Below are positions 1-63,475 of a DNA stretch of 64,000 bases, one piece after another. Position 1 is the first letter of the stretch. The number at the start of each line of letters is the position of its first letter. Made by a program: the position numbers and the translations under genes. Source of the DNA: Naegleria gruberi (lineage: Eukaryota); assembly GCA_000004985.1 (NCBI GenBank), contig GG738908.1; one strand, 5' to 3'. Below the pieces are notes generated by a model, which made no database searches, had not been told where the DNA came from, and saw nothing but the letters and a program-made list of their open reading frames with translations.

Positions 1-477
1 GGCTTGAGCTTGCCTCTTTCGCAATCCAATACTACAATGACCAAAAATATTGGCACTTTTATTTACATGGGACCTGAATCTATCAGTTCAAACACAACAA
101 GTAATTCAGGTGTTGACAAATCTCAAAGAGCTCCCAAAGTTGATGTGTACAGCTTTGCTATTATTATGTGGGAGCTATTCTTTGAGGTATCTCCATATTC
201 TCAATCGGAGAAGGTTAATTATGTATTACAACATTCAATAGGTGATATAATTGCACGAGTTTTACAAGGAGAAAGACCAAGTATTCCATTTCAAAATGAA
301 ATTGAGCTCGAGGAATGGTTACTATTGTATCCAGTACGTGAAAACCTATCAAAAGAAGCACTTGTGAAGAGTATTCTTAAGTATTGTAATATTGTCAGGC
401 AGTGTTGGCATTCAAATCCAATGGAGAGGCCTTCGTTTTCACAAATAATTCAATTATTGAATGGTTTGACGAATTGA
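1..477 (+). CDS. C-terminal fragment of a protein kinase (TKL/receptor-like kinase family); the gene continues upstream of the window
   Basis: ORF 4..477 shows kinase subdomains VIII-XI: GTFIYMGPE, DVYSFAIIMWELF, CWHSNPMERPSF. It is paralogous to the C-terminus of the kinase at 63038..63475 (DVYSFSIIMYELF ... CWSQDPNQRPNF). Stop at 475-477. Confidence 0.7.
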   Translation, partial: GLSLPLSQSNTTMTKNIGTFIYMGPESISSNTTSNSGVDKSQRAPKVDVYSFAIIMWELFFEVSPYSQSEKVNYVLQHSIGDIIARVLQGERPSIPFQNEIELEEWLLLYPVRENLSKEALVKSILKYCNIVRQCWHSNPMERPSFSQIIQLLNGLTN

Positions 478-13400: not shown

Positions 13401-14954
13401 ATATTTTTGATTATTAATAAATTCCAATATAGTTCTAATATTATTCATTAAATTATTAATAGTTAATAAATGTTCATTATTTTCAATATTATAATTATTA
13501 CTTGTTAATCTTTCAATTAAATTACAACAATTATTTAAATTATTACAAATTGTTAAATATTCATCTTGAAATTCTTTCTTAATTTGAATAGAAGAAGAAA
13601 ATGATTGAATCGATTCAAATTGTTTTTCAACTTTTCTTCTATTATTATCAACTTGTTGGTTGAGTGAACATAATTTTGAAAATGTTTCAGATGTGATTAT
13701 GAATGATTGTTTTTTCTCTAATTCTTTTCTTTCTCTTTCTATTTTTAGTAAACATTCTTTTTCAATTCTTTCCTTTTCAATTCTTTCCATTTCTAATTTT
13801 TTAATTCTTTCTCTTTCTAATCTTTCCATTTCTAGTTGGTTAAATTTTAATTGTTCCGATTGTTCTTTTAATAGTTGTTGTTCTTTTTCCATGTCACTTT
13901 TAATTGTTTGAATATTAATTCCATTCACTGACCATGTGTAATTTATGTTAATATTTGGATGTTGAAGTAATTGTTTAACAATTTCTAAATGCCCATTTTG
14001 GCAAGCAGTGTATAATGGTGGCTAATATATAAAAATAAAAATTAAATTAAATATTAAATACTTACAAACTAATATTATAAATATAAAAATTAAATTAAAT
14101 ATTAAAATACTTACTTTCTAATATTATAAATAAAATTAAATTAAATATTAAAATACTTACACGCTAATATTATAAATATAAATATAAATTAAATATTAAA
14201 ATACTTACACCCAAATTAACATCAATTGTTTTACATGATAATAATAATTTAACAATTTCTAAATAACCATTTTGGCAAGCAGTGTATAATGGTGTCTAAT
14301 ATTATAAATATAAAATTAAATTAAATATTAAAATACTTACATCCTAATATTATAAATAATATTAAATTAAATATTAAAATACTTACAAACTAATATTATA
14401 AATATAAAATTAAATTAAATATTAAAATACTTACATCCTAATATTATAAATATAAACTAAAATTAAATATTAAAATACTTACAACCTAATATTATAAATA
14501 ATATTAAATTAAATATTAAATTACTTACATCCTAATATTATAAATAATATTAAATTAAATATTAAAATACTTACAAACTAATATTATAAATATAAAATTA
14601 AATTAAATATTAAAATACTTACAACCTAATATTATAAATAATATTAAATTAAATATTAAAATACTTACATCCTAATATTATAAATAATATTAAATTAAAT
14701 ATTAAAATACTTACAAACTAATATTATAAATATAAATTAAATATTAAAATACTTACACCCAAATTAACATCAATTGTTTTACATGATAATAATAATTTAA
14801 CAATTTCTAAATGTCCTTTTTGGCAAGCAATAATTAACATGGTACAACCTTCTGATTTATTATTAACATCTTGTTCATTAAAATAATTATTAAATTCATC
14901 AATTTTGCCGTCTCTCGCAGCATCAAGCGCCTTCTGAAAATCTCGTGTGGCCAT
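10466..14954 (-). CDS. Ankyrin-repeat – long coiled-coil – protein-kinase – PARP-catalytic-domain protein (copy A; interrupted by an assembly gap)
   Basis: Exon 1 (14954..14757) encodes MATRDF..TMLIIACQKGHLEIVKLLLSCKTIDVNLG (ankyrin) and ends at a GTAAGT donor. A 735-bp intron (14756..14022) is built from tandem 47-bp units. Exon 2 starts at 14021 (PPLYTACQNGHLEIVKQLL) and runs through about 430 aa of coiled coil (LEMERLERERIKKLEMERIEKERIEKE...) into a kinase domain: IKQYNLKDKKSIEGLEKEL..KLKHSNIIEIEGIY [N gap 11843..12355] ..ILGDFDIS..GTLDYLAPE. More coiled coil follows, then a PARP catalytic domain (LWHGTKPEFVNTIAEHGFDE..GLFGAGIYFAEYCSKSDQYC..YREFIVYD) with the H-Y-E triad intact. Stop is at 10466. 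Confidence 0.8.
11843..12355. other. Assembly gap (513 N) inside the kinase domain of PARP-gene copy A
   Basis: Run of N characters. The ORFs made of X residues (11835..12401, and parts of 10466..12391 and 11808..13928) are artefacts of this gap. Confidence 0.99.
14022..14756 (-). repeat. Tandem array of about 14 intron-like 46-47-bp units inside intron 1 of PARP-gene copy A, with an embedded 87-nt exon-like ankyrin duplicate (14209..14295)
   Basis: On the gene strand each unit reads GTAAGTATTTTAATATTTAAT(A/T)TT..TATAATATTAG followed by 3 nt. On the plus strand this shows as ACTTAC recurring every 46-47 bp at 14068..14756. The segment 14295..14209 is flanked by ATTAG| and |GTAAGT and encodes an in-frame TPLYTACQNGYLEIVKLLLSCKTIDVNLG (29 codons). 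Confidence 0.85.
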
Positions 14955-37070: not shown

Positions 37071-37705
37071 GGAATCAATCAAAGAATTATTAATTTCACT
37101 TCACTCCCTGATGTGAGAGAATTACATCTCAACACAAAATAAATATCAACAAATTTATAAAGTTATGGATCGTGAATTTGGTGAAAAGAATTAAGGAAGG
37201 CTGCAATTAGTTCTCTGATGGAGTAAAACTCTCCGTATGGAAGTACAACGCTTTGTTGTAATTTGACTTTAAATTTCTACTAATTAATTGCATTGTAAAA
37301 CTAATCGATCTCAAATAAATCCTACAAATAGGATGAATCAGATTCGAATTGAGGGTGTTGAAGACGTTCCTGATTACAGTTTCAGTGAAATTTCAATCAA
37401 AACATTTCGTTGCTGATTAGGAAATGCTTTTCTTAGTCATTTCGAATATTTCTTTACTAATGGCCAATGAAAGAAACACAACAGAAGTAGGAGAAACAAA
37501 GTACTACCCAAGAGGTGGTATCTTTAAGCCATCAACGTAATATCCGACTTTACCCGCTCTTGATGGGATGAAAGTAAGAAAAAATGTCGAAACGAAATGA
37601 GACGAAACTCTCGCTCATTCAACACAACAAATCATCAGACGAAACTTATCAAGTTCATATAAAATCATCATCAACGGAGAAAGGAAACATTTCAAGATTT
37701 TTCTT

Positions 37706-39703
37706 TTGGATTCGGAAGAAATTAATTCGAATAAGAAAATTTGGATTTCGTTTATAATAGTTTCGATTATGTTCGGAGGATTAGTTTTATTATTAATGAA
37801 TGATTCATTCATTACGAACGGATCAGATTTTATTCGAAAGGATTCGTTTGAAATTTCTACATCCAATCACGAACTGAAATTAATAGAAATTTATTCCAAT
37901 ACCACTTCTTCTACTGAAATACGAAACGATTCATCAATTTGTCATCCAATTTTATTAGAAATGGGAGCCGAAAGTTCTTTAGGTCTTTGTGATGATCAAG
38001 TTTCGTCCAAAACCATCGCAGCAATCTTTCTCTTTGCCCACACCATCCTCGTTATTGTCACTCTCTCTGGCCTTCTCTACAAATTATGGAAATTACGAAA
38101 CGACATTTCGAATAGAGAAGCCAACTTTCTAACCATTACCAGAAATCCACTTTTAATGACATTAGGCTCCTTAATTGGATGGAGCTATAGTCTTGTAATG
38201 ATGGGAAGAGTACTCATTGGACGAAAGGTTTATCCATGTTTCTTATTCATGTTTGTTTTCTATATGGCAGTTCCTGGATTGGCAAGTACGATCATTATCA
38301 GATGTTTGAGATTGATAATTTTATCGAGGATGAATGAATTGAAAGTCAAGATTGGGAATAGAGAGATGAAGAGTGTGCCGAATCAAGTGAATGATAAATT
38401 GGAAAGGAAATATTCGAATGTTGTTGTGGATGGTGGAGTGGTGGTTGAAAGTGAATTGAAAGTTGTGAGCTCTGTAACGAGTACGAGTACTCAGCAAGAT
38501 GCAATTAATTCTTCTCTTGACAATGTGTCAGAAAGTGAGAGTGCTTGCACAATTTCAGCAATTCCACCAAGTATAGAGCCACAATCAATGAATATTACAT
38601 TGGAAGATTCTGTGAGTGTAAATCAACCTGGATATTCGAAATGGGAATCATTTGAAAGAAGATGGCTCATGAAAATGTACAAATTTCTAATTAGTTCCAA
38701 ATTCATAGCCATCTGGTATGCATCCATTGCAATTATACATATTGGAATTTACATTATCATTGGAGCATTTGATTATTTCAATTTCGAGAATGGTGTTAAC
38801 AATTTTTCCATTGAAGAACGACGATCCATGTCATTTGTGTACGATACTCGAATTTTCTCAGTTGGAGGATGTGGAATTAGTTTCAATTCAGTTTTAATTT
38901 TTGTCATTTATTTGGCAGTTTATGGAATTGTGGCCATTGTCATGTCCATTTATAGTTTTCTGGTCAAGAAGGATATTTGGAAAGTTAAAACAGAGCTCAT
39001 CCTCATTACACTCAATTGGTTAATCTTTTCAATTCTGTACGGAGTTTTTTCAATCATTGAAGTGTTGAGCATTCTCGTTGATTATTTCTTTCCAACAGTT
39101 GCTTTTATTTTACTGGCATGTGTCATTGACACGTTTGTTTCATGCACCATTCCAGTATTTTTCTATCAACGTTCCAAGAACTCTAAAGTAGCCAACACTC
39201 GACAAGTTTCCACCTCCAACATGCTTTCTAAAATACTATTTGATAAGAAATGGAATGAGGAATTCTTAATCTTTTCAGAGAAGAGTTATTGTCCAGAAAA
39301 TTTAATGTGTTGGAATTCTATTGAGATTTTTAGAGAATCTTCTGAGAAATTGAGAAGGAAACATATAATTAGTATTCTGGAAACTTATTTATTGGAAGGA
39401 TCTCCTTTGGAACTCAATGTTCAACGTCAAATATTTAATAATTTTGAAAATATCACGTCAATTGTCAGATCAATCAAAGCTCAAGAAGCAGAATTGAAAC
39501 GCTTAGCAGAGGAGAATAATAAGGTTGTGGGAACAGCTGTGGTAGCTCTGCAACGTAGAAAGTCAATGAAAATCATTCAAATTCCAACAAATTTATTCGA
39601 TTCCATTCAGAAACATTGTGAAATTAATATGGCTGATTGTTTTGATAGATTTTATGTGCAACATTGGCAGAAATTATGCATGGAATTGGATGTAGAGGAG
39701 TGA
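37706..39703 (+). CDS. Seven-transmembrane receptor with a C-terminal RGS domain (7TM-RGS, AtRGS1/GprK-like), paralog 1, intronless as far as visible
   Basis: Signal/TM (IWISFIIVSIMFGGLVLLLM); a Cys-containing ectodomain (NDSSICHPILLEMGAESSLGLCDDQ); seven hydrophobic helices (IAAIFLFAHTILVIVTLSGLL ... FFPTVAFILLACVIDTFVSCTIPVFFY); then an RGS domain (EFLIFSEKSYCPENLMCWNSIEIFRESSEKLRRKHIISILETYLLEGSPLELNV). The true start is uncertain because the first in-frame codon in the track is TTG. Confidence 0.75.
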   Translation: MDSEEINSNKKIWISFIIVSIMFGGLVLLLMNDSFITNGSDFIRKDSFEISTSNHELKLIEIYSNTTSSTEIRNDSSICHPILLEMGAESSLGLCDDQVSSKTIAAIFLFAHTILVIVTLSGLLYKLWKLRNDISNREANFLTITRNPLLMTLGSLIGWSYSLVMMGRVLIGRKVYPCFLFMFVFYMAVPGLASTIIIRCLRLIILSRMNELKVKIGNREMKSVPNQVNDKLERKYSNVVVDGGVVVESELKVVSSVTSTSTQQDAINSSLDNVSESESACTISAIPPSIEPQSMNITLEDSVSVNQPGYSKWESFERRWLMKMYKFLISSKFIAIWYASIAIIHIGIYIIIGAFDYFNFENGVNNFSIEERRSMSFVYDTRIFSVGGCGISFNSVLIFVIYLAVYGIVAIVMSIYSFLVKKDIWKVKTELILITLNWLIFSILYGVFSIIEVLSILVDYFFPTVAFILLACVIDTFVSCTIPVFFYQRSKNSKVANTRQVSTSNMLSKILFDKKWNEEFLIFSEKSYCPENLMCWNSIEIFRESSEKLRRKHIISILETYLLEGSPLELNVQRQIFNNFENITSIVRSIKAQEAELKRLAEENNKVVGTAVVALQRRKSMKIIQIPTNLFDSIQKHCEINMADCFDRFYVQHWQKLCMELDVEE

Positions 39704-42097: not shown

Positions 42098-45000
42098 TTA
42101 CATATTTGTTTCATGATCATCTAGCCATTGATAATTGAGTTCCTTTTCCTGTTCCATAATTTGAATCATTTCGGTACTGCTGATTCTTCCATTCTCTCCA
42201 GCAGAAGATCTTCCACTTCTTCTGTACATTTCCAAATCAATTAAATAGCATTGCAATACTGTATCAATAACAGTTTGGAAAATTGTAATAAACAATGAGC
42301 TGACAAGTACACTCATAGCAAAAACAATAACCAGCAACATAAAGCTATGATTCACATCAAGCCATTCCTTTCCTGAAAAGACAATTTCAAACAAGCCATA
42401 ATTACCTTGTTCATTGTAGGCATTGGTTATCTTTCCAACAACACTTGTGAATTCCTCAAGTGATTTATCTTGGGCATGAATGATAATATAAGCCACAGCA
42501 ACACTAATAATGGCGACTAACATTTTCATACAAAACATGATCCAATCGGTAATCCATTCCAGAACTGCAATAAATGTAATATTCTTACGCATCAGCTTGG
42601 TAGAACTGAGTGAGGAGTGGAAGAATGTTGTACCAAAAATGGCACAGTGAATCAAACTGTTTCTAGCAAAGAATTCCATGAATTTTTCAATGTACTTGAG
42701 AATAACAAATAGAATTCTATGGATAAATCTTGTTAAGAAATTATTTCTAAAATTGTTAATAAATCTAACAATAAAGAATTGACTCTCAACTGCTTGTTCA
42801 ACAGTGCTCTTTTCACTTTGATATCCCATCAAGGAAAGGGATGTCTTGATAACCAGTATCAAATATTTCACAAGTCCAACAAATAAACTAGCAAGTGCAA
42901 TACTTCCTGCATTGTAGTACATGACAAATAATGAAGCTTGAAGAACTGGAAGCTTTAGACACATGAGCGTCTTTTCATAGCTGTCAAATATTGCAGAGCT
43001 TGATTCACCTCTTCTTGCTGCTGTTATAGTTCCAGAAACGTTTCCAAACTTGAAATAGAAGGTAGAGGTAACACGAGCAACAACAATAGTAACAAAACTC
43101 AACAAGAATTGAGTAATCCAGAAGAAACCAAGCAAGTAGTATGCAAACCATCCTTTCAAGAGATGGGACTGCAAAGTTAAAATAAAGCTTGTTGGATTGG
43201 AGAGTGATTGCATCTTTTCAGTAAGGGTATTACCTGTGGCAATATTACTTGTAACTTTTCCAGCCAAAGATGAAGCATCTGTAATTCCAGCGGCTGTCAG
43301 TTCATTGGTGAGCAAGAGGGCAACAACACAGAACCACCAAACACAGAAAATAATGCCTCCAATAAAGATTGCAATAGGCAGTACTGTAAACATTTGAGGC
43401 ACTGTCGTAATAATCATGGCACTCTCCTTAATGATAGAAACTGATCTGGATAATGTCTTTTTCCAATAATTCCAGAAAATAAATGTGAACAACAAATTTG
43501 TAAAGAGTAAGAATAAACCACTGCCCAAGTAGAGAGAATTTTCCCAAGTTAAATCAGCAATAGTGGAAGAGAATTTCTGGGACCATCTTGATGAGCCAGA
43601 TACATTGAAATGTAGATCAGATCCTCCTTCAACAAGTAACATGATGGACAAGGAGAACCATGCAAGAATGAGTAGGGCAACGGTACCATAAATCAAAGGC
43701 TTGGCCAATACCCTCAACAAGACAACTGTAATAAATGATACAGCAGCAGTAATTGTAACTGAGATGAGAATAATTTTCCAACTATTATACAACATGGTAA
43801 CACTCTTAATGATAAACTTTTCCAAGAAGGAAGGCATCAAACCAGATAATTCTTGAATATTAATTTCCTTTCCAATATTTGAAATGGTTGGTAAATTATC
43901 AATATAAGGACCAATAGTTGCACTGAAATATGAAGCAGGTGATATAGTAGTAATATGTCGTATCAAATTGGAGAGGGCTGACTTTTGTTGTTCAAACATT
44001 TCTTCAGTCATTTCGAAACCTGAAATTGTTTGAAGACTGGACTTGGTATTCAAATTGTTTTGCAATTTAGCCAAATTAGCTGCTTGTTCAAAGAATGCAA
44101 ATGAAGACGGTGTAGGAATGCAACGTCCCATCACTGAAAAGTAGGTTTGATCTTGAGGAACTTCGAAATAGACAGGTTCTGCTTTCTTTTCCTTGGAGAG
44201 GAAGAAACGTTTAGCAGCACACAAGTTCTTCTTTTTGATAATGACTTTGGTGACATTTTCTGTAATGGTTTCATTTCCTACAATCTTTTTAACTTGTTCG
44301 GTAATTTCAGTCTTATCGAACCAGGTTTTTCTCAAGGAGAGAGGGCATTCATCCGATACAAATGACAAACTTTCTGTTGATTGAGATGAGAATTCATCAC
44401 GAACATCAAGGTCCTTATTGTTCAAATTCTTTGAATTATCAATAGTCTTGACAGCACTTGGGCAACTCTCCACACAAATACCTCCATGTTTAATCCAAGT
44501 TTCAAATGGTACTGTTGATTTGGCAAGGTCATACTTTTCCTTTCCAAAGAATGCATCCTTTTCATTCATAATCCACAAATATTTACGTGATGAAAGATCT
44601 TCCTTCCAATAGTTTTTATCAACCATAGAATCAGCAAATTGAAGTGCTCTATTTTGAATAGATAAACTATCGAGAGATCCATCATCTTTAGAATAATCAA
44701 CACCACAAGCTCTTCCCAAATAATCAATCGGATAGAAGAAACGTGTCATTTCCCTCTTTGATGGAATAAAGTAATTAAAGAATGAAATATTGTCGTCTAA
44801 TGATGATGGATTGTTGTTGTTACTATTTACAGAGGAAGTAAGAAGGTCGGCAACACTGGCTTTTAAAAGATTCATCTCTGCCCCTTGATTATGTTCCTTC
44901 AATTGTGCTGAAATGTACTCTCTTCTCTTTACTATAGCCTCCAAAGCAATAGCAATCATACCAATACAGAAGAGGATAAACACAATAAGGAAGAGAATAT

Positions 45001-45370
45001 CTCTACATGGACGATTTTGATGGAATTCATAAGTGTACTTTTTAACGAGGAGACTATTACTCTTTCTATTGTTATTACCAAGAAGTGATTCTTCATCAGA
45101 GTCTGAATCAAAGTCTAGTGATGGTTTAGGAATGGTAGCAGAAGGTCTTCCGCCATTGTTATTATTATGAGATGATGTGTTATTGTTATTATTTGCAGAG
45201 TTTGTAGTTTTGTTAGTTGTATGATTGTTATTAGTTGAAGTTTGTTGTTGTTGGTTTGTTTGATTAATCTTTGTATTGACCAATTCAACTTCCCTCGATA
45301 GATATTCTAACAACTCTTCTGGAGAAGGAGTTGGATATAAATTGTTATTATTATTGCCTTGTTGACTCAT
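42098..45370 (-). CDS. Choline-transporter-like (CTL/SLC44/Pns1 family) membrane protein with a long poly-Asn/Gln N-terminal extension
   Basis: 1090-aa single ORF. N-terminus MSQQGNNNNNLYP..QQQTSTNNNHTTNKTTNSANNNNN. A first TM (ILFLIVFILFCIGMIAIAL), a large extracellular loop, then a multi-TM core with CTL-conserved blocks (WFAYYLLGFFWITQFLLSFVTIVVARVTSTFYF; RNSLIHCAIFGTTFFHSSLSSTKLMRKN). Confidence 0.7.
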   Translation of the reverse strand: MSQQGNNNNNLYPTPSPEELLEYLSREVELVNTKINQTNQQQQTSTNNNHTTNKTTNSANNNNNTSSHNNNNGGRPSATIPKPSLDFDSDSDEESLLGNNNRKSNSLLVKKYTYEFHQNRPCRDILFLIVFILFCIGMIAIALEAIVKRREYISAQLKEHNQGAEMNLLKASVADLLTSSVNSNNNNPSSLDDNISFFNYFIPSKREMTRFFYPIDYLGRACGVDYSKDDGSLDSLSIQNRALQFADSMVDKNYWKEDLSSRKYLWIMNEKDAFFGKEKYDLAKSTVPFETWIKHGGICVESCPSAVKTIDNSKNLNNKDLDVRDEFSSQSTESLSFVSDECPLSLRKTWFDKTEITEQVKKIVGNETITENVTKVIIKKKNLCAAKRFFLSKEKKAEPVYFEVPQDQTYFSVMGRCIPTPSSFAFFEQAANLAKLQNNLNTKSSLQTISGFEMTEEMFEQQKSALSNLIRHITTISPASYFSATIGPYIDNLPTISNIGKEINIQELSGLMPSFLEKFIIKSVTMLYNSWKIILISVTITAAVSFITVVLLRVLAKPLIYGTVALLILAWFSLSIMLLVEGGSDLHFNVSGSSRWSQKFSSTIADLTWENSLYLGSGLFLLFTNLLFTFIFWNYWKKTLSRSVSIIKESAMIITTVPQMFTVLPIAIFIGGIIFCVWWFCVVALLLTNELTAAGITDASSLAGKVTSNIATGNTLTEKMQSLSNPTSFILTLQSHLLKGWFAYYLLGFFWITQFLLSFVTIVVARVTSTFYFKFGNVSGTITAARRGESSSAIFDSYEKTLMCLKLPVLQASLFVMYYNAGSIALASLFVGLVKYLILVIKTSLSLMGYQSEKSTVEQAVESQFFIVRFINNFRNNFLTRFIHRILFVILKYIEKFMEFFARNSLIHCAIFGTTFFHSSLSSTKLMRKNITFIAVLEWITDWIMFCMKMLVAIISVAVAYIIIHAQDKSLEEFTSVVGKITNAYNEQGNYGLFEIVFSGKEWLDVNHSFMLLVIVFAMSVLVSSLFITIFQTVIDTVLQCYLIDLEMYRRSGRSSAGENGRISSTEMIQIMEQEKELNYQWLDDHETNM

Positions 45371-47502: not shown

Positions 47503-50500
47503 TTATTGAATGAAAATGAAAGCAAGAATCAATGAAAACAATACAATGAAATAGAATTTGGAGGAAGATGCTTGGTTGACTGATTGTTGAGCTAAAGTTG
47601 GTGAAATGGCAAAATCAGTCAAGTGAACAGTTCTACATTTGACTCTGGTATTACTAATCTTGATAGATTCCAATCCAATTGATGAGAATTGTGATGATTG
47701 AGTATTGTAGAATTGACACAAACCCATCATTGTAGAATTCATTAAAGAAATGTCAACTTCAAACTCAATTGGGGAAGTGAGGTCTGAAATTTCGAGTTCA
47801 GTACCATTAGAAAGAATGTTAATTGAAATAATGGAAGAAACCAAATCAGTCTTGATGTGAGAGTAAATATTTTGTGAAATGATTGATAAGGAAATTGAAA
47901 CAGAAGCACTGGAATCTAATTGATATTTGGAAGAAAGCAACTTTTTCAAAGAATCCTTTGGTAAGCTCAAGGAAGAAAGTCCAATTTGAGAAGGTGAGAA
48001 ATTAAAGTTGTCAATTGTGCTCTTTACAACAGCTGTCTTGACAAGATTTGAAACTGAGACGCTCGATTGTCCATCAACCAATGACATGGCTGCTCCAACT
48101 TGACTAGCATCAATGACCTTCTTTAATTGAGAAGCAAAATTAGAATTTGATGTGGAAACAGTTGAAACCAATTGAGAAACTGTCTTGACAATGGAAGTTC
48201 TATCAGTAGATTGTAAGTTTTGCTTCAAAGATGTAGAAATACTCGACAATAAATTCAAAGTCTTTTGAGCTGTGTCTGATGTAATTTCTGATGGTTGATT
48301 GGTTAATCTTTCCAAAAGTCCAATCTTTGCGGTGTCAGAATCAGTTGAAGCAATAATTTGAGTCAAAATGTTACTTCTGATTGATGTCTTTTCAGTAGTT
48401 GTAAGCTTGGAATTGAGTAATGAATTGGCAATTTCCAAAGAACTCAATGAAGTGCTGCTAATCAAAGAGTTGACAAGTGAGCTAACTTCTTGAGCTGACA
48501 TGGTAGTAGTTGGATCTTGAATGGTCAAAACTTTAGTTTTTTCAACTGTTGTAAAAGCAGCATCTCTGACTGCAAAGAAAATTGTCACTTGTCCAGAGCT
48601 GAAAGTAGGAAGAGTAAATGTTGGGGATGTTGAGCTAGCACTCAATTCAGCAACATAAACTTTGCTATTTTCTTGAGTATAATAACCAAATGAATAGAGC
48701 ATGGTAAATGATTCTGGATCCGTGGCAACCAAACTAGCTCTTAAACTTGTCTTGACAGCAAGTGCAGAACTAATTTCCAATCCACTAGTAGCATTGACAA
48801 CCTTGAATGATGAAATAGTTGGTGATCTGTTAATGGTAATCTTTAAATCTTTTGAAACGGATACAGATCCAGTAGCAGAAACACGAGTAGCATTCAATCT
48901 GAAAGTATAAGTTGCTCCTTCTGTTAAACTATTTGCCTTAATGGCTAAATCTTTCTTGTCAGTTCCAGCAACTGAAATAGTTTCCAAATTGACTGCAGTT
49001 CCAGAAACTTGAGTCCACTTGTAGCTCAATGAAGAATACGCACTCAATGATGAAATTGTAGATTTGAAAACAATGTCCATCGATCCAGGAGTATAAACAG
49101 TTTGTCCAGAGGTGAAAGTTGGTGAACTGATAACAGCATCGAATGACAAATCACAACTTCCATAAACATAATTGGCTGGACAGGTACAAATATTTGGACC
49201 AGTACATTGTCCAAATCCACAACCACCCTTAGAGGAACAATCAAATACGTTACAATCACTTCCAGTATATCCTGACTTGCAAGTACAAACATTAGGTGAA
49301 GTACATGTACCATTTCCATTACAATTATTGAGAGTGGTACAAGTTGGAGTGTTACAACTAGCTCCTGTATATCCAGATTGACAAGTACAGACATTAGGAC
49401 CAGTACATTGACCACGATTCATGCAATTCGAAACCAAATTACAACTATATTGATTACAGGTACTTCCCTTATAACCAGCTTTACATAAACAAGTATTAAT
49501 GGCAAGACAATCACCATTTCCATTACAATTATTCACTCCAGCACATGATGGAGTTTCTCCAGGACGAACAGCTCTCAAGTAATTGCTAGTACATGCAGAG
49601 TTTTCACCCTGAGTGAGAAGATAGCCAACCGATGGATAATAATACTTGTATCCATTTGAATCTACTGCCTTAATATAATATTTTCTACAAGCAGTTCCAG
49701 AAGAAAGTCTAGTAGTATTATATTCGAAAGTTCCTGCATTCAAAGACGAATCAGTATACATACTCGATGTTGGAATACTCATTGGATATTCCACATCATT
49801 AATAAAAATGGAAACATTCAATGGAGCTACTCCCTTTCCCAAATCTGCCTTATGATAATAATTAGCAAGGAATGTAACTGTATCTGTGGCAAACGTAATA
49901 TGTGTAGCAGCAACGATTGGATTTGAAATACCATGTGAACCTGAGGCAAAATTCTGTGTCCAATAATCACTGAAACCTGTGGCTGCAACCTTTGGATAAT
50001 GTCCAACTCCAAGAAGGGTATATGAGCTTCCAAGAATGTTGGCTCTGTGTCCATCAGAATTAATCCAAGCCATGGTTACAGAAAGAGGACTTGTCTGTCC
50101 AGCTGCAATATTTTCAGCCATTGCTGCTGGTTTAGTGTAAAAAGTAGCAACTCTGGTGAAGGTTAGAGTTCCATCACATGAATTATGTTGAAAACAAGGT
50201 ACAGTTGCCATGTCTTTCGAATGGAATCGTCCAGATTCTACCAAATTGAAATGTTCGAAAAGTGGAGGCAAACCAGTGGTTTCCAATGACTTTTCTGCTT
50301 GGAATAAATTCAAGAATCTGGTCTTGAATCCTGAAGGAGACATTCTAGCCCAATTTGTTAAAACATGGACCGTCTTTTCGACATATCTCGAATAAGTGTA
50401 AACTAAATCAGAAAGTGCATTCACACCAACTTGATCACCAATTCCATAAAATTCCCAATTACCATTATCTGTGCTGCCATTGTTGGTTGAAGCACCACCA

Positions 50501-50685
50501 TCATTAGCAAAAGTGGCCATGACAGCACGTTTGTTTTTGGCAAATTTCAAATTGCTGTCAAATGCCATCGAAGGAGGATTTTGTGAAATGACAGATAGAG
50601 GTTCATGTTCTGCCAACACCAGAAAGAGGGAGGATAATACCAACACTACCAAGAGTGCATAATGCAACCTGTTACTCAACAACAT
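47503..50685 (-). CDS. Secreted/type-I membrane protein: CAP (SCP/PR-1-like) domain, 4-5 tenascin-type EGF repeats, a long Ser/Thr-rich mucin-like stalk, and a C-terminal TM
   Basis: Signal peptide (MLLSNRLHYALLVVLVLSSLFLVLA). CAP-like block (GQTSPLSVTMAWINSDGHRANILGSSYTLLGVGHY...YWTQNFA). EGF repeats (CNGNGDCLAINTCLCKAGYKGSTCNQYSC..CMNRGQCTGPNVCTCQSGYTGASCNTPTC..CNGNGTCTSPNVCTCKSGYTGSDCNVFDC). An S/T-rich region of about 500 aa, then a C-terminal TM (FYFIVLFSLILAFIFIQ). Confidence 0.75.
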   Translation of the reverse strand: MLLSNRLHYALLVVLVLSSLFLVLAEHEPLSVISQNPPSMAFDSNLKFAKNKRAVMATFANDGGASTNNGSTDNGNWEFYGIGDQVGVNALSDLVYTYSRYVEKTVHVLTNWARMSPSGFKTRFLNLFQAEKSLETTGLPPLFEHFNLVESGRFHSKDMATVPCFQHNSCDGTLTFTRVATFYTKPAAMAENIAAGQTSPLSVTMAWINSDGHRANILGSSYTLLGVGHYPKVAATGFSDYWTQNFASGSHGISNPIVAATHITFATDTVTFLANYYHKADLGKGVAPLNVSIFINDVEYPMSIPTSSMYTDSSLNAGTFEYNTTRLSSGTACRKYYIKAVDSNGYKYYYPSVGYLLTQGENSACTSNYLRAVRPGETPSCAGVNNCNGNGDCLAINTCLCKAGYKGSTCNQYSCNLVSNCMNRGQCTGPNVCTCQSGYTGASCNTPTCTTLNNCNGNGTCTSPNVCTCKSGYTGSDCNVFDCSSKGGCGFGQCTGPNICTCPANYVYGSCDLSFDAVISSPTFTSGQTVYTPGSMDIVFKSTISSLSAYSSLSYKWTQVSGTAVNLETISVAGTDKKDLAIKANSLTEGATYTFRLNATRVSATGSVSVSKDLKITINRSPTISSFKVVNATSGLEISSALAVKTSLRASLVATDPESFTMLYSFGYYTQENSKVYVAELSASSTSPTFTLPTFSSGQVTIFFAVRDAAFTTVEKTKVLTIQDPTTTMSAQEVSSLVNSLISSTSLSSLEIANSLLNSKLTTTEKTSIRSNILTQIIASTDSDTAKIGLLERLTNQPSEITSDTAQKTLNLLSSISTSLKQNLQSTDRTSIVKTVSQLVSTVSTSNSNFASQLKKVIDASQVGAAMSLVDGQSSVSVSNLVKTAVVKSTIDNFNFSPSQIGLSSLSLPKDSLKKLLSSKYQLDSSASVSISLSIISQNIYSHIKTDLVSSIISINILSNGTELEISDLTSPIEFEVDISLMNSTMMGLCQFYNTQSSQFSSIGLESIKISNTRVKCRTVHLTDFAISPTLAQQSVNQASSSKFYFIVLFSLILAFIFIQ

Positions 50686-53290: not shown

Positions 53291-54841
53291 TCAAGCAGCA
53301 CTGACTATTTCAGGAGTAACTCTTCTTGTGATTCTAACCTTTAAATTAGGGGAAGGTTTATGGACAGGACTTTGGATTGCAACAATTGGATCCTTCTCCA
53401 AATCATTCAACAATTCAAATTCGAATCTCTGAATCATTTTGGTCAATATCATGCAAGATTCCAATAGAGAAAACTTCTTTCCCAAACAAGCACGATTTCC
53501 CATACTGAATGGAACAAATGTAAAGTTGTGGAATGACGATTCTCTGAATTGTGGATCCACAAATCGATCAGCAATGAATTCGGTTGGTTTCTCCCAAACA
53601 TCAGGTCGTTTCATCAAGTATCCAAATAGGGTAGCTACATGAGTTCCCTTAGGAATTGAAAAATTACCCAATGTCGTATTCTTGACTGCAACACGAGATA
53701 GAATTTGAACTGCTGGATGAAGTCTGAAAGATTCCATAAGGACAGAGTTGACCAAATGAAGATTTGGAAAATCATCAATTGTTGGATCTCTTCTTCCAAT
53801 CGTTTTGGAAATTTCATTATAGAGCTCTTGTTGAATTGTTGGATTTTTGGAAATTTCAAAGGTTGTCCATTGTAAAAGTGTGGAAGTCGTATCATGACCT
53901 GCAAAACTCATTATTACACTGTTACTCTTCAGCTCATCATCAGTAATTAGCTTTTCTGTCATGTTTGCCTTCACCAATAATGTCAAAATGTCATTCATGT
54001 CATTAATCAATGGTTTGTCTTCCAACAATTTTTTTCTACTTTGAATCATTTCATCCAAAGATTTGCTACAGGTTTCCAAATGTCCATGAATGCCAACTAT
54101 CTTTGACATGATTGTTTGTAATTTTCCATTTCCAAATAGACGACGAATTGCCAAAGCTTTCATTGAGAATGTTTGTTGTAAACTTGTCTTGAAAGCTTTT
54201 CCTTCTTGATTGGAGGAGAATATTCCAAAATCGAGATTGAAACCTGCCTTACCAAGTACATCCAAAGTAATATCTGAAAAGTCATCATTCGAAAGCATGA
54301 CACCACTTTCGTCCTTGCTCCATCTTTCGAATAATAATTCTGCAGATTGACAAGCAACTTGACAAACATAGATTAAATTCTGAGGTGAGAATGCTGGACT
54401 GCAAACTTTAAAGTGTCTTTTCCATCTTTCGTTATTCACAGCACTCACAATATTTTCACCAAACATGGTAATAAATTTAAAATCAGGTTTTTCATAGCAA
54501 TTTGCTTTTAGAATGAAGAATTCCTTGAATAGTTTCGGATCACTGATTAAAACTATTGGAGCATCCTTTGTAACGATTCGAGCAGTTTTAGTTTCATCAT
54601 TCGAATAAGAATCGACTACATTTTCAATTTCCTTGACTGAACCAAAGTAATAGTAGGGAGAAAGAAGAGGAATTCTGAATGGAGAAAGTTCCAATAATTG
54701 GAAAACTCCTGGAATGTTCGATACCTTGCTGTATTGCTTGTACAATCTGAAAGCAAAATACGAAACCAAACTAATGACTGTTAGCAACAAGATTAAACCA
54801 AATGATTGCCAACTGTTTAAACTATAAAGGTATGTTAGCAT
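53291..54841 (-). CDS. Cytochrome P450 monooxygenase, intronless paralog of 51498..53143, convergent with it
   Basis: 516-aa single ORF. Anchor (GLILLLTVISLVSYFAF), AGHDTT, ESFRL, FSMGNRACLGKKFS. It is collinear with the plus-strand P450 across both of that gene's intron positions, with no interruption. Confidence 0.85.
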   Translation of the reverse strand: MLTYLYSLNSWQSFGLILLLTVISLVSYFAFRLYKQYSKVSNIPGVFQLLELSPFRIPLLSPYYYFGSVKEIENVVDSYSNDETKTARIVTKDAPIVLISDPKLFKEFFILKANCYEKPDFKFITMFGENIVSAVNNERWKRHFKVCSPAFSPQNLIYVCQVACQSAELLFERWSKDESGVMLSNDDFSDITLDVLGKAGFNLDFGIFSSNQEGKAFKTSLQQTFSMKALAIRRLFGNGKLQTIMSKIVGIHGHLETCSKSLDEMIQSRKKLLEDKPLINDMNDILTLLVKANMTEKLITDDELKSNSVIMSFAGHDTTSTLLQWTTFEISKNPTIQQELYNEISKTIGRRDPTIDDFPNLHLVNSVLMESFRLHPAVQILSRVAVKNTTLGNFSIPKGTHVATLFGYLMKRPDVWEKPTEFIADRFVDPQFRESSFHNFTFVPFSMGNRACLGKKFSLLESCMILTKMIQRFEFELLNDLEKDPIVAIQSPVHKPSPNLKVRITRRVTPEIVSAA

Positions 54842-60352: not shown

Positions 60353-63300
60353 ATGTCATCACCACAACATGCAACCCTGCTTCTCGCCTTTTTNNNNNNN
60401 NNNNNNNNNNNNNNNNNNNNNNNNNNNNNNNNNNNNNNNNNNNNNNNNNNNNNNNNNNNNNNNNNNNNNNNNNNNNNNNNNNNNNNNNNNNNNNNNNNNN
60501 NNNNNNNNNNNNNNNNNNNNNNNNNNNNNNNNNNNNNNNNNNNNNNNNNNNNNNNNNNNNNNNNNNNNNNNNNNNNNNNNNNNNNNNNNNNNNNNNNNNN
60601 NNNNNNNNNNNNNNNNNNNNNNNNNNNNNNNNNNNNNNNNNNNNNNNNNNNNNNNNNNNNNNNNNNNNNNNNNNNNNNNNNNNNNNNNNNNNNNNNNNNN
60701 NNNNNNNNNNNNNNNNNNNNNNNNNNNNNNNNNNNNNNNNNNNNNNNNNNNNNNNNNNNNNNNNNNNNNNNNNNNNNNNNNNNNNNNNNNNNNNNNNNNN
60801 NNNNNNNNNNNNNNNNNNNNNNNNNNNNNNNNNNNNNNNNNNNNNNNNNNNNNNNNNNNNNNNNNNNNNNNNNNNNNNNNNNNNNNNNNNNNNNNNNNNN
60901 NNNNNNNNNNNNNNNNNNNNNNNNNNNNNNNNNNNNNNNNNNNNNNNNNNNNNNNNNNNNNNNNNNNNNNNNNNNNNNNNNNNNNNNNNNNNNNNNNNNN
61001 NNNNNNNNNNNNNNNNNNNNNNNNNNNNNNNNNNNNNNNNNNNNNNNNNNNNNNNNNNNNNNNNNNNNNNNNNNNNNNNNNNNNNNNNNNNNNNNNNNNN
61101 NNNNNNNNNNNNNNNNNNNNNNNNNNNNNNNNNNTATTGATGGTATCAATTCTTTCACAATTACTGGCTCTACATTTGCAAACAATTCCAAATTACACAT
61201 GACAACTGTTTTCAGCTCTACCTTGAGAGGTTTGACTTTTGAGGGAAATGAAAATGTTCTTTCTGCGAAAGGAATTGGTTCTTTTACATTGGAGCATTCA
61301 AATTTTACTCGCAATGGTAATCCAATTTATATTTCAGGAAATCAATTGACAAATCAATTTAGAAAAATTAGTTTTTGTTTATTTGAGGACAATTGGTCAA
61401 CCAGCAATGGTCTTATAACATTGGAACAGTTTCCCACACATGTGGAATTTAACAATTTCAGAAATAATTGGGCAGTGAATGGAGGAATAATTTATGCAAC
61501 TAGTTCCATAATTACTTTGGATAAAAATCAGTTTGTGGATACTTATGCAAGATTCATTGAAGGTTGTTTAGTTGATAATTGTGGAAATGGAGGAATTGCC
61601 TATATTTCTAATACTATTTTGTACATGTCCAATCTCATTATTCAAAATACTCAAGCAATTAGAGGAGGAATTGTTTATTCTGAGGGAAATTCTCGAATTC
61701 AAACCCAAAATTGTGATATTTCAGATAATATTGCTTCTTTGGCTGGTAATTTATTTTACTTTGGAGATGTTATTGATTTTAATGCCCAAAATTATTCGAA
61801 ATCTGACCTGAGTTCGAGGAAAACAACTCGAGCACTTTGGAGAACGGAATCTAGTCAACCTTACGATAATCAACGAATTGCCATCCAACCCGGGCAAACA
61901 ATACAATTGGATTTTGAGTATTTTGACATGTTTGACAACAGATTCAATAGAACAAATTCTGCTCCAATTATTAAGGCAAGTGATTCATCCAACATTCTTG
62001 TATCCCTCGTTTCAATTGATCCACTTTCCAATACTGACTTTAAATTCTTCTTGCAAGTGTCAGAAACTTCAAAAAGCTCAAATATTTCAGTATATCTCCC
62101 ATTCCATGACTTTACATTTGAGATTGATATTGATATTATTGGATGCCCTTTTGATTATGGTTTATCACCACTTTTAAATTCACACTACAACGTGTGTGTC
62201 TATAGAGGTTATATTATAATTGTATTCTCCTCTATTGGCATTGCAATCATTCTACTGGTTGCAATTTATTTATTGATCTATGTTGTTAAGAGATTACTCA
62301 AATTGAGAAAGAAGGAAATGACTGAAAAGGAAATTGCACAAAAGATTATTGATAAGAATTTTGTTTTTTCTATCAATACTGATAATGAGCACACTCCATT
62401 ATTATCAAAACTGGAAGTTGCCAAGATTAGTAATATCTTAATTCCAATTGAGGATATTGAAATCATCAAAAGAATTGGAGAAGGAGCTAATGGTACTGTA
62501 TACTTAGCTAAATGGCAAGGAAATCGTGTAGCTCTAAAAAGTTTAAAATTCGAAAGGGATAGCACTGACTTTGAAAATGAAGCATCTCTCCTTAATAATT
62601 TGAGACATCCTTCTATTGTGAGATTTTATGGAATTGTAGTGTCTTCTTCAGTTAAATACATGGTTACAGAGTTTGTGGAAAATGGAAGTTTGGATGCAGC
62701 CATTCATAATTCCAAAATTGGAAAGAAGAAACTTGATTTACAAACAAAATTACAAATTTTGAGAGGAATTGCAAATGGAATGAACTATCTTCATAATTTG
62801 AAAACTCCATGTCTTCACAGAGATTTGAAATGTCAAAATATTCTTCTCAATTCCAACATGGAACCAAAGGTTACAGATTTTGGATTGTCAAAATTGACTT
62901 TAAATTCAATGACATTGACTTGCAATATTGGAACAGCTCTTTACATGGTAAGTTTTCAAATTTAAGAGAGTTAAACCGAGTCAATCATTGTAAAGTCTCC
63001 TGAATTATTTGGAAGTGGTTACAAAATTTCATACAAATTGGACGTTTACAGTTTCTCCATCATCATGTACGAATTATTCTTTGAGGAAACTCCATTCTTT
63101 AGCTCATCAGCCAAGATGAGAAAATTTATCATTTCATCCACTGAACAATCACCAGAAGATGATCATGATACAATGAATTTTGGTTTTGCAATTCCAGTAA
63201 AAGTTTCGAAAGGAGAACGGCCAATGCTTCCCTGGACTAATGATGAGGAATGTGAAATGTGGATTAAGGAATTTATAGAACCCTATGAAGGAGGAGGAGG

Positions 63301-63475
63301 AGGAAATAATAGTAGTAGCAAAAGATCTTCATCCCTATTGAAAGTATTGCAAGTTAGCTTACAATATATTAACTTGATGAAGGAATGTTGGAGTCAGGAT
63401 CCAAATCAAAGACCGAACTTTTCCCAAATTGAGACGGAATTATTCAACATGATCAATGAAATTTCCAACCAATAA
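60353..63475 (+). CDS. Receptor-like TKL protein kinase with a PMP-like/right-handed beta-helix ectodomain, a single TM and a C-terminal kinase domain; two exons, ectodomain interrupted by an assembly gap
   Basis: Proposed structure join(60353..62947, 62996..63475), with N gap 60394..61134. Likely start MSSPQHATLLLAF (signal) in an AAAAAAAATG context; the track ORF begins further upstream at 60254. The ectodomain has PMP/GGA(I/L)-type repeats (NGGIIYATSSIITLDKNQF; GNGGIAYISNTILYMSNLIIQNTQAIRGGIVYSEGNS). TM: IIIVFSSIGIAIILLVAIYLLIYVV. Kinase: IGEGANGTVYLAKW..VALKSL...HRDLKCQNILL..KVTDFGLSKL..GTALYM, then a 48-bp intron (GTAAGT..GTAAAG, 62948..62995), then SPELFGS..DVYSFSIIMYELF..CWSQDPNQRPNF. 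Confidence 0.75.
60394..61134. other. Assembly gap (741 N) inside the ectodomain of the receptor kinase gene
   Basis: Run of N characters. The X-only ORFs 60289..61314 and 60369..61202 are gap artefacts. Confidence 0.99.

What the first reader, a model, noticed from the sequence alone, without database searches (positions are those of the whole stretch)
60353..63475. Receptor-like TKL kinase with beta-helix (PMP-like) ectodomain; a paralog fragment at the window start indicates a dispersed or tandem family
The architecture signal peptide – beta-helix repeats (GGIIYA, GGIAYIS, GGIVYSEG) – TM – TKL kinase is a receptor-kinase design that arose independently of animal RTKs and plant RLKs. The kinase C-terminus at 1..477 is a paralog; compare DVYSFAIIMWELFFE with DVYSFSIIMYELFFE, and CWHSNPMERPSF with CWSQDPNQRPNF. 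The end-of-window gene has an intron inside subdomain VIII (between ALYM and SPELF) that the first paralog lacks.
Basis: partly seen in the sequence, partly recalled or inferred. Interest (0 to 1): 0.5.

Follow-up and report, generated by a model that had tools for sequence, protein, structure and literature searches.

The report
Naegleria receptor kinase with beta-helix ectodomain
This is a real gene of the amoeba Naegleria gruberi for a single-pass membrane protein that joins a beta-helix plus Ig-like outer domain to an intact TKL-type protein kinase; it belongs to a small family found here only in Naegleria and is a lineage-specific form of the receptor-kinase design rather than a new kind of system.

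Summary
The window is Naegleria gruberi NEG-M: three window ORFs are exact matches to its proteins. After a 741-N assembly gap, one uninterrupted ORF (61136-62947) encodes a PMP-like right-handed beta-helix, an Ig-like sandwich, a two-Cys loop, one TM helix, a conserved juxtamembrane segment and a kinase up to subdomain VIII. A 48-nt GTAAGT..AG intron (62948-62995) with in-frame stops is followed by the rest of the kinase (62996-63475). All catalytic motifs are present, and the best solved-structure match is the TKL kinase CTR1. The ectodomain and kinase cannot be separate genes.

Only three proteins in 1.84 billion representatives match the whole ectodomain: two from N. gruberi, on other scaffolds, and one from N. 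fowleri. All have the same architecture. The fragment at 1-477 is a kinase paralog that shares an unusual insertion and lacks the intron. Its ectodomain lies outside the window and is unknown.

The gap could not be filled and the signal peptide is unverified. The ligand and the location of the protein are inferred only. The closest analogues are the Dictyostelium DRK/VSK and GDT receptor TKLs, the Entamoeba TMKs and plant RLKs. I rate it a new variant of a known kind, of moderate interest.

The parts
60353..60393 (+). Putative start codon and first 13 codons (MSSPQHATLLLAF), probably the beginning of a signal peptide. It is cut off by the assembly gap.
   Evidence: An A-rich leader precedes the ATG and the upstream gene stops at 60239. 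The relative P0069 has an N-terminal hydrophobic signal-like segment. The link to the rest of the gene is not verifiable.
60394..61134 (.). Assembly gap of 741 N. It hides about 250 or more codons of the N-terminal ectodomain.
   Evidence: In the relatives P0069 and P0072, 320-350 residues precede the position that aligns with the first post-gap residue.
61136..61795 (+). PMP-like right-handed parallel beta-helix (post-gap residues 1-220), with FxxN and GG[I][IAV]Y repeat motifs.
61823..62140 (+). Membrane-proximal Ig-like beta-sandwich (residues about 230-335).
62144..62197 (+). Two-cysteine stalk loop (CPFDYGLSPLLNSHYNVC) directly before the membrane.
   Evidence: C337, P338 and C354 are invariant in all family members.
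62210..62284 (+). Single transmembrane helix (YIIIVFSSIGIAIILLVAIYLLIYV), followed by the basic stop-transfer sequence KRLLKLRKK.
   Evidence: Hydropathy maximum of the protein, 2.9. Modelled as a helix.
62285..62440 (+). Conserved cytoplasmic juxtamembrane segment (..LRKKEMTEKEIAQKIIDKNFVFS..PLL..).
   Evidence: L387, L390, E394, E397, K398, D406, K407, F411, L422 and L423 are invariant between the N. gruberi and N. fowleri relatives.
62441..62947 (+). Kinase domain, first part: IPIEDIEI lead-in, Gly loop GEGANG, VALK, HRDLKCQN, DFG, up to GTALYM in subdomain VIII.
   Evidence: Pfam Pkinase 2.2e-52. Best solved-structure match CTR1, 7.3e-38.
62948..62995 (+). 48-nt intron, GTAAGT...AAAG, phase 0, with in-frame stops at 62963 and 62972.
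   Evidence: Splicing restores the subdomain VIII motif, and the Pfam match is a single stretch across the junction. A similar 50-nt GTAAGT..CAG intron lies at 792-841 in a neighbouring gene.
62996..63475 (+). Last exon: SPE, DVYSFS, GERPMLP, an insertion of about 45 residues (with a Gly/Asn/Ser-rich stretch), CWSQDPNQRPNF and stop TAA at 63473-63475.
   Evidence: The insertion is shared with the paralog fragment.
1..477 (+). 3' end (kinase C-lobe, subdomains VIII-XI, stop at 475-477) of a paralogous TKL kinase gene that begins upstream of the window. There is no intron at the YM|xPE position.
   Evidence: (Pkinase 4.8e-12).

Best explanation
The locus is a functional N. gruberi gene for a type-I, single-pass receptor-like kinase.

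Shown by sequence and models:
- The outside part is a PMP-like right-handed beta-helix, followed by an Ig-like sandwich and a short two-cysteine stalk.
- One TM helix and a conserved juxtamembrane segment follow.
- The inside part is a TKL-group kinase with every catalytic motif intact and a family-specific insertion between subdomains X and XI.
- It belongs to a small family found here only in Naegleria, with the same architecture in two other N. gruberi genes and one N. fowleri gene.

Inferred mechanism:
- The ectodomain faces the medium, or the lumen of a phagosome or endosome.
- The long beta-helix face binds a repetitive ligand, most likely a glycan or a surface polymer of prey bacteria or the substrate. 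It may instead act as an adhesin, as chlamydial Pmps do.
- Ligand-driven clustering or dimerisation brings the kinase domains together for trans-phosphorylation, with the juxtamembrane segment acting as a regulator. This would couple contact or feeding cues to cytoskeletal or trafficking responses.
For: - Organism: three window ORFs are exact matches to N. gruberi proteins XP_002671151 to XP_002671153.
- One gene: a continuous 604-codon ORF spans the beta-helix, the TM helix and the kinase N-lobe. The spliced product gives a complete Pkinase match at 2.2e-52.
- Active kinase: GxGxxG, VALK, E, HRDLKxxN, DFG, SPE, DVYSF and RP.F are all present.
- TKL: the best solved-structure hits are CTR1 at 7e-38, then a mix of TKL (CERK1, TNNI3K, RIPK2, MLT, TAK1) and TK kinases (EGFR, Eph receptors).
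- Family: a full HMMER scan of 1.84 billion representatives finds only P0061, P0069 and P0072 covering the whole ectodomain (7.5e-25, 4.8e-7, 2.3e-6). All three carry TM, juxtamembrane segment and kinase. They come from N. gruberi (two scaffolds) and N. fowleri. In N. fowleri the whole N-terminal region, helix, TM and kinase start form a single 900-codon ORF on a gap-free contig.
- Precedent for the mechanism: the Dictyostelium TKL receptor kinase VSK3 is an active kinase with a luminal Ig-like (TIG) domain and is needed for phagosome maturation (PMC2064856; PMC1420674). The Entamoeba kinase PATMK takes part in phagocytosis (PMC2211552).
Against: - The N-terminal quarter or so of the gene is hidden by the gap, so the signal peptide, and hence the topology, rests on 13 residues plus one relative (P0069).
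- No transcript or protein evidence was available.
- No gene model containing this ectodomain is in the protein collection (best hit 33% identity; ten guessed models absent), so expression is unproven.
- The window protein itself does not reach any Pfam threshold in its ectodomain.
- Nothing here bears on the ligand, on the location (surface versus endomembrane) or on dimerisation. The beta-helix fold does not by itself say glycan rather than protein ligand.
- Both structure models rest on a four-sequence alignment.
Confidence: 0.8

Rival explanations
1. The architecture is the same, but the protein is not a plasma-membrane sensor. It sits on phagosomes or late endosomes with the beta-helix in the lumen, and it regulates phagosome maturation or trafficking, as Dictyostelium VSK3 does.
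Against: No sorting signal was examined and there are no localisation data. Orthology to DRK/VSK was not tested, and the VSK3 ectodomain is not described as containing a beta-helix. This rival concerns location only and is compatible with the gene model.
Confidence: 0.3
2. The beta-helix is a tethered carbohydrate-active enzyme (lyase, hydrolase or epimerase) rather than a binding module, and the kinase reports on or regulates that activity.
Against: Sequence identity to those enzymes is 6-18% with no family-level sequence hit (no Pfam match). All sequence-level relatives are PMP-type repeat proteins, whose known members are adhesins. No catalytic residues were identified.
Confidence: 0.08
3. 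The locus is a pseudogene or an assembly artefact. The 5' exon, the gap and the downstream ORF do not form one expressed gene, or the 5' part is disrupted.
For: The gap is 741 N. No annotated protein containing this ectodomain is in the collection. Exact look-ups failed.
Against: 763 codons downstream of the gap are open apart from one canonical intron. Every catalytic motif is intact and positions are conserved with a different species. Missing annotation is expected next to a scaffold gap, and the models of the paralogs are also truncated.
Confidence: 0.07
4. The ectodomain and the kinase are separate genes.
For: None was found.
Against: A single ORF, 61136-62947, contains the helix repeats, the TM helix and the kinase N-lobe. 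The same fusion is seen in P0061, P0069 and in one 900-codon N. fowleri ORF.
Confidence: 0.01

Closest known systems
Dictyostelium discoideum TKL receptor kinases (DRK family rk1-3 = VSK1-3; GDT family)
   Same: They come from a free-living phagotrophic amoeba and have the same layout: signal peptide, lineage-specific ectodomain, one TM helix and a TKL-group kinase. rk3/VSK3 carries an Ig-like (TIG) domain next to the membrane and is an active kinase involved in phagosome maturation (PMC1420674, PMC2064856).
   Different: They belong to a different supergroup (Amoebozoa, not Heterolobosea). No beta-helix or PMP-like repeats are described in their ectodomains. Kinase orthology was not tested here. 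The X-XI insertion and the juxtamembrane motif of the Naegleria family have no described counterpart.
Entamoeba histolytica transmembrane kinases (TMKs, e.g. PATMK, TMKB1-9)
   Same: This is a multigene family of single-pass receptor-like kinases in an amoeboid protist, with members implicated in phagocytosis and growth responses (PMC2211552, PMC2880585).
   Different: From my own knowledge, TMK ectodomains are Cys-rich with CXXC or CXC repeats. The Naegleria ectodomain has only 6 Cys in 358 residues and is a beta-helix plus an Ig-like domain. The TMK family is far larger.
Plant RLK/Pelle receptor kinases that sense glycans (LysM-CERK1, WAK, malectin-like)
   Same: They have a single-pass ectodomain-TM-Ser/Thr kinase layout. 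Their kinases fall in the TKL group, and CERK1 and LysM kinases are among the better solved-structure matches (3e-32). Sensing of polysaccharide ligands is a plausible functional parallel.
   Different: The ectodomain folds are different (LysM, EGF/GUB, malectin, LRR). The window kinase scores higher to the Raf-like CTR1 than to any RLK/Pelle kinase. No evidence of common descent of the receptor architecture was obtained.
Chlamydial polymorphic membrane proteins (Pmp; Pfam PF02415 Chlam_PMP repeats)
   Same: They share the repeat chemistry (FxxN and GG[AI][ILV] in successive beta-helix coils). The profile-profile match to a PMP-repeat protein is 97%, and two paralogs pass the Pfam cut-off.
   Different: Pmps are bacterial autotransporters with a C-terminal beta-barrel. 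Here the helix is followed by an Ig-like domain, a TM helix and a eukaryotic kinase. The window protein itself does not reach the Pfam threshold.
Animal insulin and EGF receptor family (L domains)
   Same: They are receptor kinases whose ligand-binding L domains are also right-handed beta-helical solenoids (from my own knowledge; compare PMC2577065).
   Different: L domains are short, LRR-like and paired with Cys-rich regions. The kinases belong to the TK group and are unrelated in sequence to PMP repeats. EGFR appears only as a general kinase-domain match.

Membership tests
Receptor-like kinase architecture (type-I single-pass) | N-terminal signal peptide | tested here: inconclusive
   Only MSSPQHATLLLAF is visible before the gap. 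The relative P0069 starts MSLQIKALTRSLHVLMMLCLIMMIIVMEG. No signal-peptide predictor was available.
Receptor-like kinase architecture (type-I single-pass) | One TM helix between a folded ectodomain and a cytoplasmic kinase, all in one gene | tested here: met
   There is a single hydropathy peak at post-gap residues 359-383 followed by KRLLKLRKK. The ORF is continuous. The ectodomain is modelled as a beta-helix plus an Ig-like domain.
Receptor-like kinase architecture (type-I single-pass) | Catalytically competent ePK domain | tested here: met
   Pkinase 2.2e-52 over profile positions 2-258 of 263. GEGANG, VALK, E, HRDLKCQN, DFG, SPE, DVYSF and RPNF are all present. Enzyme activity itself cannot be tested with these tools.
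TKL kinase group | Closest similarity is to TKL kinases, with a Ser/Thr-type catalytic loop HRDLKxxN and the TK/TKL-type subdomain XI motif CW..DP..RP.F | tested here: met
   The best solved-structure hit is CTR1 (7.3e-38), followed by a mix of TKL kinases (CERK1, TNNI3K, RIPK2, MLT, TAK1, DLK) and TK kinases (EGFR, Eph receptors). The motifs were read from the sequence.
TKL kinase group | Placement inside TKL by phylogeny or kinome-specific HMMs, and assignment to a TKL family | not tested
   No kinome classification library or tree was run.
Chlam_PMP repeat proteins (PF02415) / PMP-like beta-helix | Reaches the Pfam gathering score for Chlam_PMP | tested here: not met
   The window ectodomain matched no family at E <= 1. 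The relatives P0069 (22.7 bits) and P0072 (28.6 bits) pass the 20.6-bit cut-off.
Chlam_PMP repeat proteins (PF02415) / PMP-like beta-helix | Alternating FxxN and GGA[ILV]-type motifs in a right-handed parallel beta-helix | tested here: met
Chlamydial Pmp autotransporters | C-terminal autotransporter beta-barrel | tested here: not met
   The helix is followed by an Ig-like domain, a TM helix and a kinase, and no autotransporter family was hit. The locus is not filed as a Pmp.
Naegleria beta-helix receptor kinase family (defined here: P0061, P0069, P0072/P0110) | Full-length ectodomain homology, plus the invariant CP...C stalk, the juxtamembrane motif (K/R)E(K/M)xEK..(I/V)DK..(I/V)FS and the IPI(E/D)xI(E/D) lead-in to the kinase | tested here: met
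   phmmer 7.5e-25, 4.8e-7 and 2.3e-6 over query residues 3-357, 8-344 and 48-348. The invariant columns are listed. Overall identity is 39, 35 and 30-32%.
Naegleria beta-helix receptor kinase family: membership of the fragment at 1-477 | Same ectodomain, TM helix and juxtamembrane segment | not testable with these tools
   The 5' part of that gene is outside the window and no tool could reach the rest of the scaffold. Only kinase-level paralogy and the shared X-XI insertion are shown.
Plant RLK/Pelle (IRAK) family | Kinase domain falls inside the monophyletic RLK/Pelle clade | not tested
   No tree was built. Solved-structure scores to CERK1 and LysM RLKs (about 3e-32) are lower than to CTR1 (7e-38), which does not suggest membership.
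Entamoeba TMK family | Cys-rich (CXXC/CXC) ectodomain | tested here: not met
   There are 6 Cys in 358 ectodomain residues and no CXXC repeats.
Dictyostelium DRK/VSK family | Orthologous kinase and drk-type or TIG ectodomain | tested here: inconclusive

The most novel reading that the evidence does not exclude
The family could be a Naegleria-specific pattern-recognition system. In this reading a tailspike-like or PMP-like beta-helix reads out bacterial or environmental polysaccharides (capsule, EPS, cell wall) and signals directly through a TKL kinase. That would be a glycan-sensing receptor kinase assembled independently of plant PRRs and animal RTKs, by fusing a repeat module best known from chlamydial adhesins to a eukaryotic kinase in a lineage that hosts chlamydial symbionts.
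Probability: 0.15. Interest if true: 0.65.

Novelty: new variant of a known kind. Interest (0 to 1): 0.38.

Why it matters
Receptor kinases have been assembled repeatedly in eukaryotes: in animals, plants, Dictyostelium, Entamoeba and oomycetes. This adds a case from Heterolobosea, a distant and little-studied supergroup, with an ectodomain type (PMP-like beta-helix plus Ig-like domain) that I could not find described for any receptor kinase.

It gives a concrete candidate for how Naegleria senses prey, substrate or host surfaces. That includes the pathogen N. fowleri, which has a homolog.

It also flags defects in the N. gruberi annotation. No model containing this gene's ectodomain is in the protein collection, and the paralog models are truncated. 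A family-aware re-annotation is therefore needed before Naegleria kinome counts can be trusted.

Tried and rejected
1. Word-index protein searches. The full protein gave only generic kinase hits, the ectodomain gave nothing, and a family profile returned only the N. fowleri member. The index evidently does not return N. gruberi proteins, even ones that were in the query alignment, so absence there is not evidence.
2. Filling the gap. I looked up both possible prokaryote-style products of the last exon, ran a profile scan of JGI metagenome contigs and scanned them for an exact 26-mer. All were empty.
3. Finding the annotated model. Ten guessed models, starting at internal Met codons, spliced or unspliced, are all absent. 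P0061 and P0069 are not in the gene-position index, so N. gruberi DNA for the paralogs could not be fetched and their introns could not be checked.
4. A shared module in other eukaryotic PMP-like surface proteins. I suspected that the Ig-like domain plus Cys stalk also occurs in P0063 and P0073. hhalign gives 0.8% and 2% probability, so this is not supported.
5. The neighbouring 1946-aa Beta_helix ORF (1782-7622) as a source or relative of the ectodomain. tblastn gives E 2.9, so it is not detectably related.
6. The afdb50 fold library was unavailable, so the family could not be enumerated by structure.
7. Literature. Full-text searches for Naegleria with PMP, receptor kinase or TKL found nothing on this family.
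8. Source of the nearest PMP-repeat protein (P0062). It comes from an unnamed metagenome scaffold, so a bacterial versus eukaryotic origin of the repeat module could not be addressed.
Full report
**Source and context.** The window is Naegleria gruberi NEG-M. Three window ORFs are exact matches to XP_002671151, XP_002671152 and XP_002671153, all on a 259,034-bp scaffold: 42101-45370(-), 47506-50685(-) and 53294-54841(-). GC content is about 34% and genes are dense with few introns. The window has five N runs, and one of them (60394-61134, 741 N) lies inside the finding.

**Checking the observation.** An ATG at 60353, preceded by an A-rich leader and lying 114 nt after the stop of a fatty-acid hydroxylase gene, opens MSSPQHATLLLAF and then runs into the gap.
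- The sequence resumes at 61135, and from 61136 there is one uninterrupted reading frame of 604 codons to 62947.
- It has a single strongly hydrophobic segment, YIIIVFSSIGIAIILLVAIYLLIYV (62210-62284; hydropathy maximum 2.9), followed by KRLLKLRKK.
- It then encodes a protein kinase as far as GTALYM.
- At 62948 the sequence reads GTAAGT, stops appear in frame at 62963 and 62972, and AAAG ends at 62995.
- From 62996 the same protein continues SPELFG...DVYSFS...CWSQDPNQRPNF to a TAA at 63473-63475.

The spliced product matches Pfam Pkinase at 2.2e-52 as a single stretch across the junction, covering profile positions 2-258 of 263. The 48-nt intron is therefore real in the sense that only its removal yields a complete kinase. 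A neighbouring gene has a very similar 50-nt GTAAGT..CAG intron at 792-841.

At the window start, bases 1-477 translate to a kinase C-lobe ending in a stop. FIYMGPES is uninterrupted there, so it has no intron at that site.

**The ectodomain and kinase are one gene.** The beta-helix repeats, the TM helix and the kinase N-lobe lie in one ORF downstream of the gap. The gap affects only the link to the first 13 codons and hides the N-terminal part of the ectodomain.

**What the ectodomain is.**
- Pfam finds nothing in the 358 visible ectodomain residues, even at E <= 1.
- A full HMMER scan of 1.84 billion representative proteins gives 49 hits. Only three cover the whole ectodomain: P0061 (7.5e-25, query 3-357), P0069 (4.8e-7, 8-344) and P0072 (2.3e-6, 48-348).
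- The other hits match only the repeat region. Of seven of them scanned against Pfam, five are Chlam_PMP repeat proteins, P0065 also carries Beta_helix, and P0063 had no Pfam hit; P0066 was not scanned.
- A profile of the family aligns to one such protein with 97% probability (E 9e-11) over window residues 25-212. P0069 and P0072 themselves pass Pfam's Chlam_PMP cut-off.
- An invariant C-P...C loop sits directly before the membrane.

"PMP-like beta-helix" is therefore supported at the profile and fold level. The protein is not a Pmp autotransporter, because the helix is followed by an Ig-like domain, a TM helix and a kinase.

**The kinase.** All catalytic motifs are present: GEGANG, VALK, the alpha-C Glu, HRDLKCQN, DFG, SPE, DVYSF and RPNF. 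The best solved-structure match is Arabidopsis CTR1 (7.3e-38). It is followed by a mixture of TKL kinases (CERK1, LysM RLKs, TNNI3K, RIPK2, MLT, TAK1, DLK) and TK kinases (EGFR, Eph). Together with the Ser/Thr-type HRDLKxxN loop and the CW..DP..RP.F motif, this supports a TKL assignment. No phylogeny was made. An insertion of about 45 residues lies between GERPMLP and CW.

**The family.**
- P0061 (XP_002670975, NAEGRDRAFT_73913) and P0069 (XP_002679420, NAEGRDRAFT_65139) are N. gruberi proteins on scaffolds of 250,472 and 573,072 bp.
- P0072/P0110 (CAG4708412) is from N. fowleri.
- All share the order helix, Ig-like domain, CP..C loop, TM helix, (K/R)E(K/M)xEK..(I/V)DK..(I/V)FS, IPI(E/D)xI(E/D), kinase. 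Identity to the window protein is 39, 35 and 30-32%, with many invariant juxtamembrane positions.
- P0069 begins with a signal-peptide-like hydrophobic segment, and 320-350 residues precede the point where the window sequence resumes. That fits a gap hiding about 250 or more codons.
- In N. fowleri the N-terminal region, helix, TM helix and kinase start form one 900-codon ORF on a gap-free contig (L001).

The family is thus small and dispersed and, as far as a single-sequence HMMER scan and one metagenome scan can tell, confined to Naegleria. Within the window there are only two kinase loci, 60 kb apart, so it is not a tandem array.

The best library hit to the window ectodomain is only 33% identical, and ten guessed models are absent. 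The public N. gruberi proteome therefore seems to lack a model containing this ectodomain. The paralog models are themselves truncated: P0061 ends at HR, and P0069 ends at ...LFYM+R, the position equivalent to the window intron.

**The fragment at 1-477.** It aligns end to end with the target C-lobe (80.5 bits, 33% identity), against at most 35.6 bits, in split pieces, to any solved kinase. It also shares an extended segment between GERPxxP and CW, including an E..E(M)W motif. It is therefore a paralog within the same TKL subfamily. Whether its gene has the beta-helix ectodomain cannot be determined, because the 5' part lies outside the window.

**Introns.**
- The window gene has one intron, in subdomain VIII (phase 0).
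- The fragment lacks it.
- The N. fowleri homolog has introns at other sites: after GEGAN, splitting the next Gly codon, and after ANILL. Neither site is interrupted in the window gene.
- Intron positions therefore vary within the family. The truncation of the P0069 model at the same YM suggests, but does not prove, a shared intron there.

**Mechanism (inferred).** The topology implied is type I, with the helix and Ig-like domain outside or in a lumen and the kinase in the cytosol. The extended face of a beta-helix typically binds repetitive ligands: glycans in tailspikes and lyases, host surface proteins in Pmp adhesins. I therefore propose ligand- or contact-driven clustering that activates the kinase in trans, with the conserved juxtamembrane segment acting as a regulator. 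This would couple prey or substrate contact to cytoskeletal or trafficking responses.

The nearest experimentally studied analogues are Dictyostelium VSK3/rk3 and Entamoeba PATMK. VSK3 is a TKL kinase with a luminal TIG domain, sits on late endosomes and is needed for phagosome maturation (PMC2064856, PMC1420674). PATMK takes part in phagocytosis (PMC2211552). A phagosomal location is therefore a serious rival to a surface-sensor role. An enzymatic ectodomain and a pseudogene are less likely. Separate genes are excluded.

**Comparison and novelty.** The design (lineage-specific ectodomain, one TM helix, TKL kinase) is well known from Dictyostelium, which has nine TKL receptor kinases (PMC1420674), from Entamoeba and from plants. 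What differs here is the supergroup (Heterolobosea), the ectodomain composition (PMP-like beta-helix plus Ig-like domain), and the family-specific juxtamembrane motif and kinase insertion. Full-text searches found no description of this family. The paralogs sit in databases as "predicted protein". I rate it a new variant of a known kind, with moderate interest. It is a good lead for Naegleria sensing and for re-annotation, but it is not surprising in principle.

**Limits.**
- The gap could not be filled.
- There are no expression data.
- The structure models rest on four sequences.
- Family enumeration is limited to one single-sequence HMMER scan, because the word-index search does not return N. 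gruberi proteins and the AFDB fold library was unavailable.

Noticed in passing
window 10432-14947 and 34345-37104: A large near-perfect inverted repeat. Blocks of 967 nt (99% complementary) and 1022 nt (94%) plus smaller blocks flank about 19.4 kb. The inner ends carry AT-rich 46-47-nt tandem arrays (14022-14764 and 34528-34909) that are reverse complements of each other. Both arms are interrupted by N gaps and contain ORFs (10466-12391(-), 11808-13928(-), 34996-36081(+), 36084-37070(+)). It could be a large TIR element, an inverted segmental duplication or an assembly artefact.
   Followed up: partly
window 1782-7622 (+): A 1946-aa single ORF with three Pfam Beta_helix (PF13229) stretches (2.1e-35) and a weak DUF1565 match lies immediately downstream of the kinase fragment. 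It is not detectably related to the receptor ectodomain (tblastn E 2.9). Its exact sequence is absent from the protein collection, although neighbouring N. gruberi genes are present.
   Followed up: partly
P0061 (XP_002670975) and P0069 (XP_002679420), N. gruberi, other scaffolds: The annotated models of both paralogs are truncated inside the kinase domain. P0061 ends at ...LIHR and also lacks an N-terminal signal. P0069 ends at ...GTLFYM+R, exactly where the window gene has its intron. This suggests systematic mis-annotation of this family.
   Followed up: partly
L001 10350-10964 (N. fowleri, ENA ERZ2098899 NODE_113): The N. fowleri homolog has introns at positions different from the window gene: after GEGAN and after ANILL. 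It also has an apparent frameshift after HPSIV, next to a poly-A run, in a contig of about 1.6x coverage. The NCBI model CAG4708412 skips part of the kinase there.
   Followed up: partly
window 744-1327 (+): A small gene whose first exon (744-791, MSHAIGVLLLFIICMM, signal-peptide-like) is followed by a 50-nt GTAAGT..CAG intron (792-841) and a Ser/Asn/Thr-rich product. It is useful as a local example of N. gruberi intron form.
   Followed up: partly
window 23880-25868(-), 47506-50685(-), 37706-39700(+): Other putative surface or signalling genes lie in the same window: G8 + Temptin_C + fn3 (23880-25868), CAP + teneurin-type EGF repeats (47506-50685, XP_002671152) and an RGS-domain protein (37706-39700).
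   Followed up: no
tool behaviour (versus 22, 25): The word-index protein search never returned the N. gruberi proteins P0061 and P0069, even when they were rows of the query alignment. The full HMMER representative search found them. Negative results from the word index should not be read as absence for this organism.
   Followed up: yes
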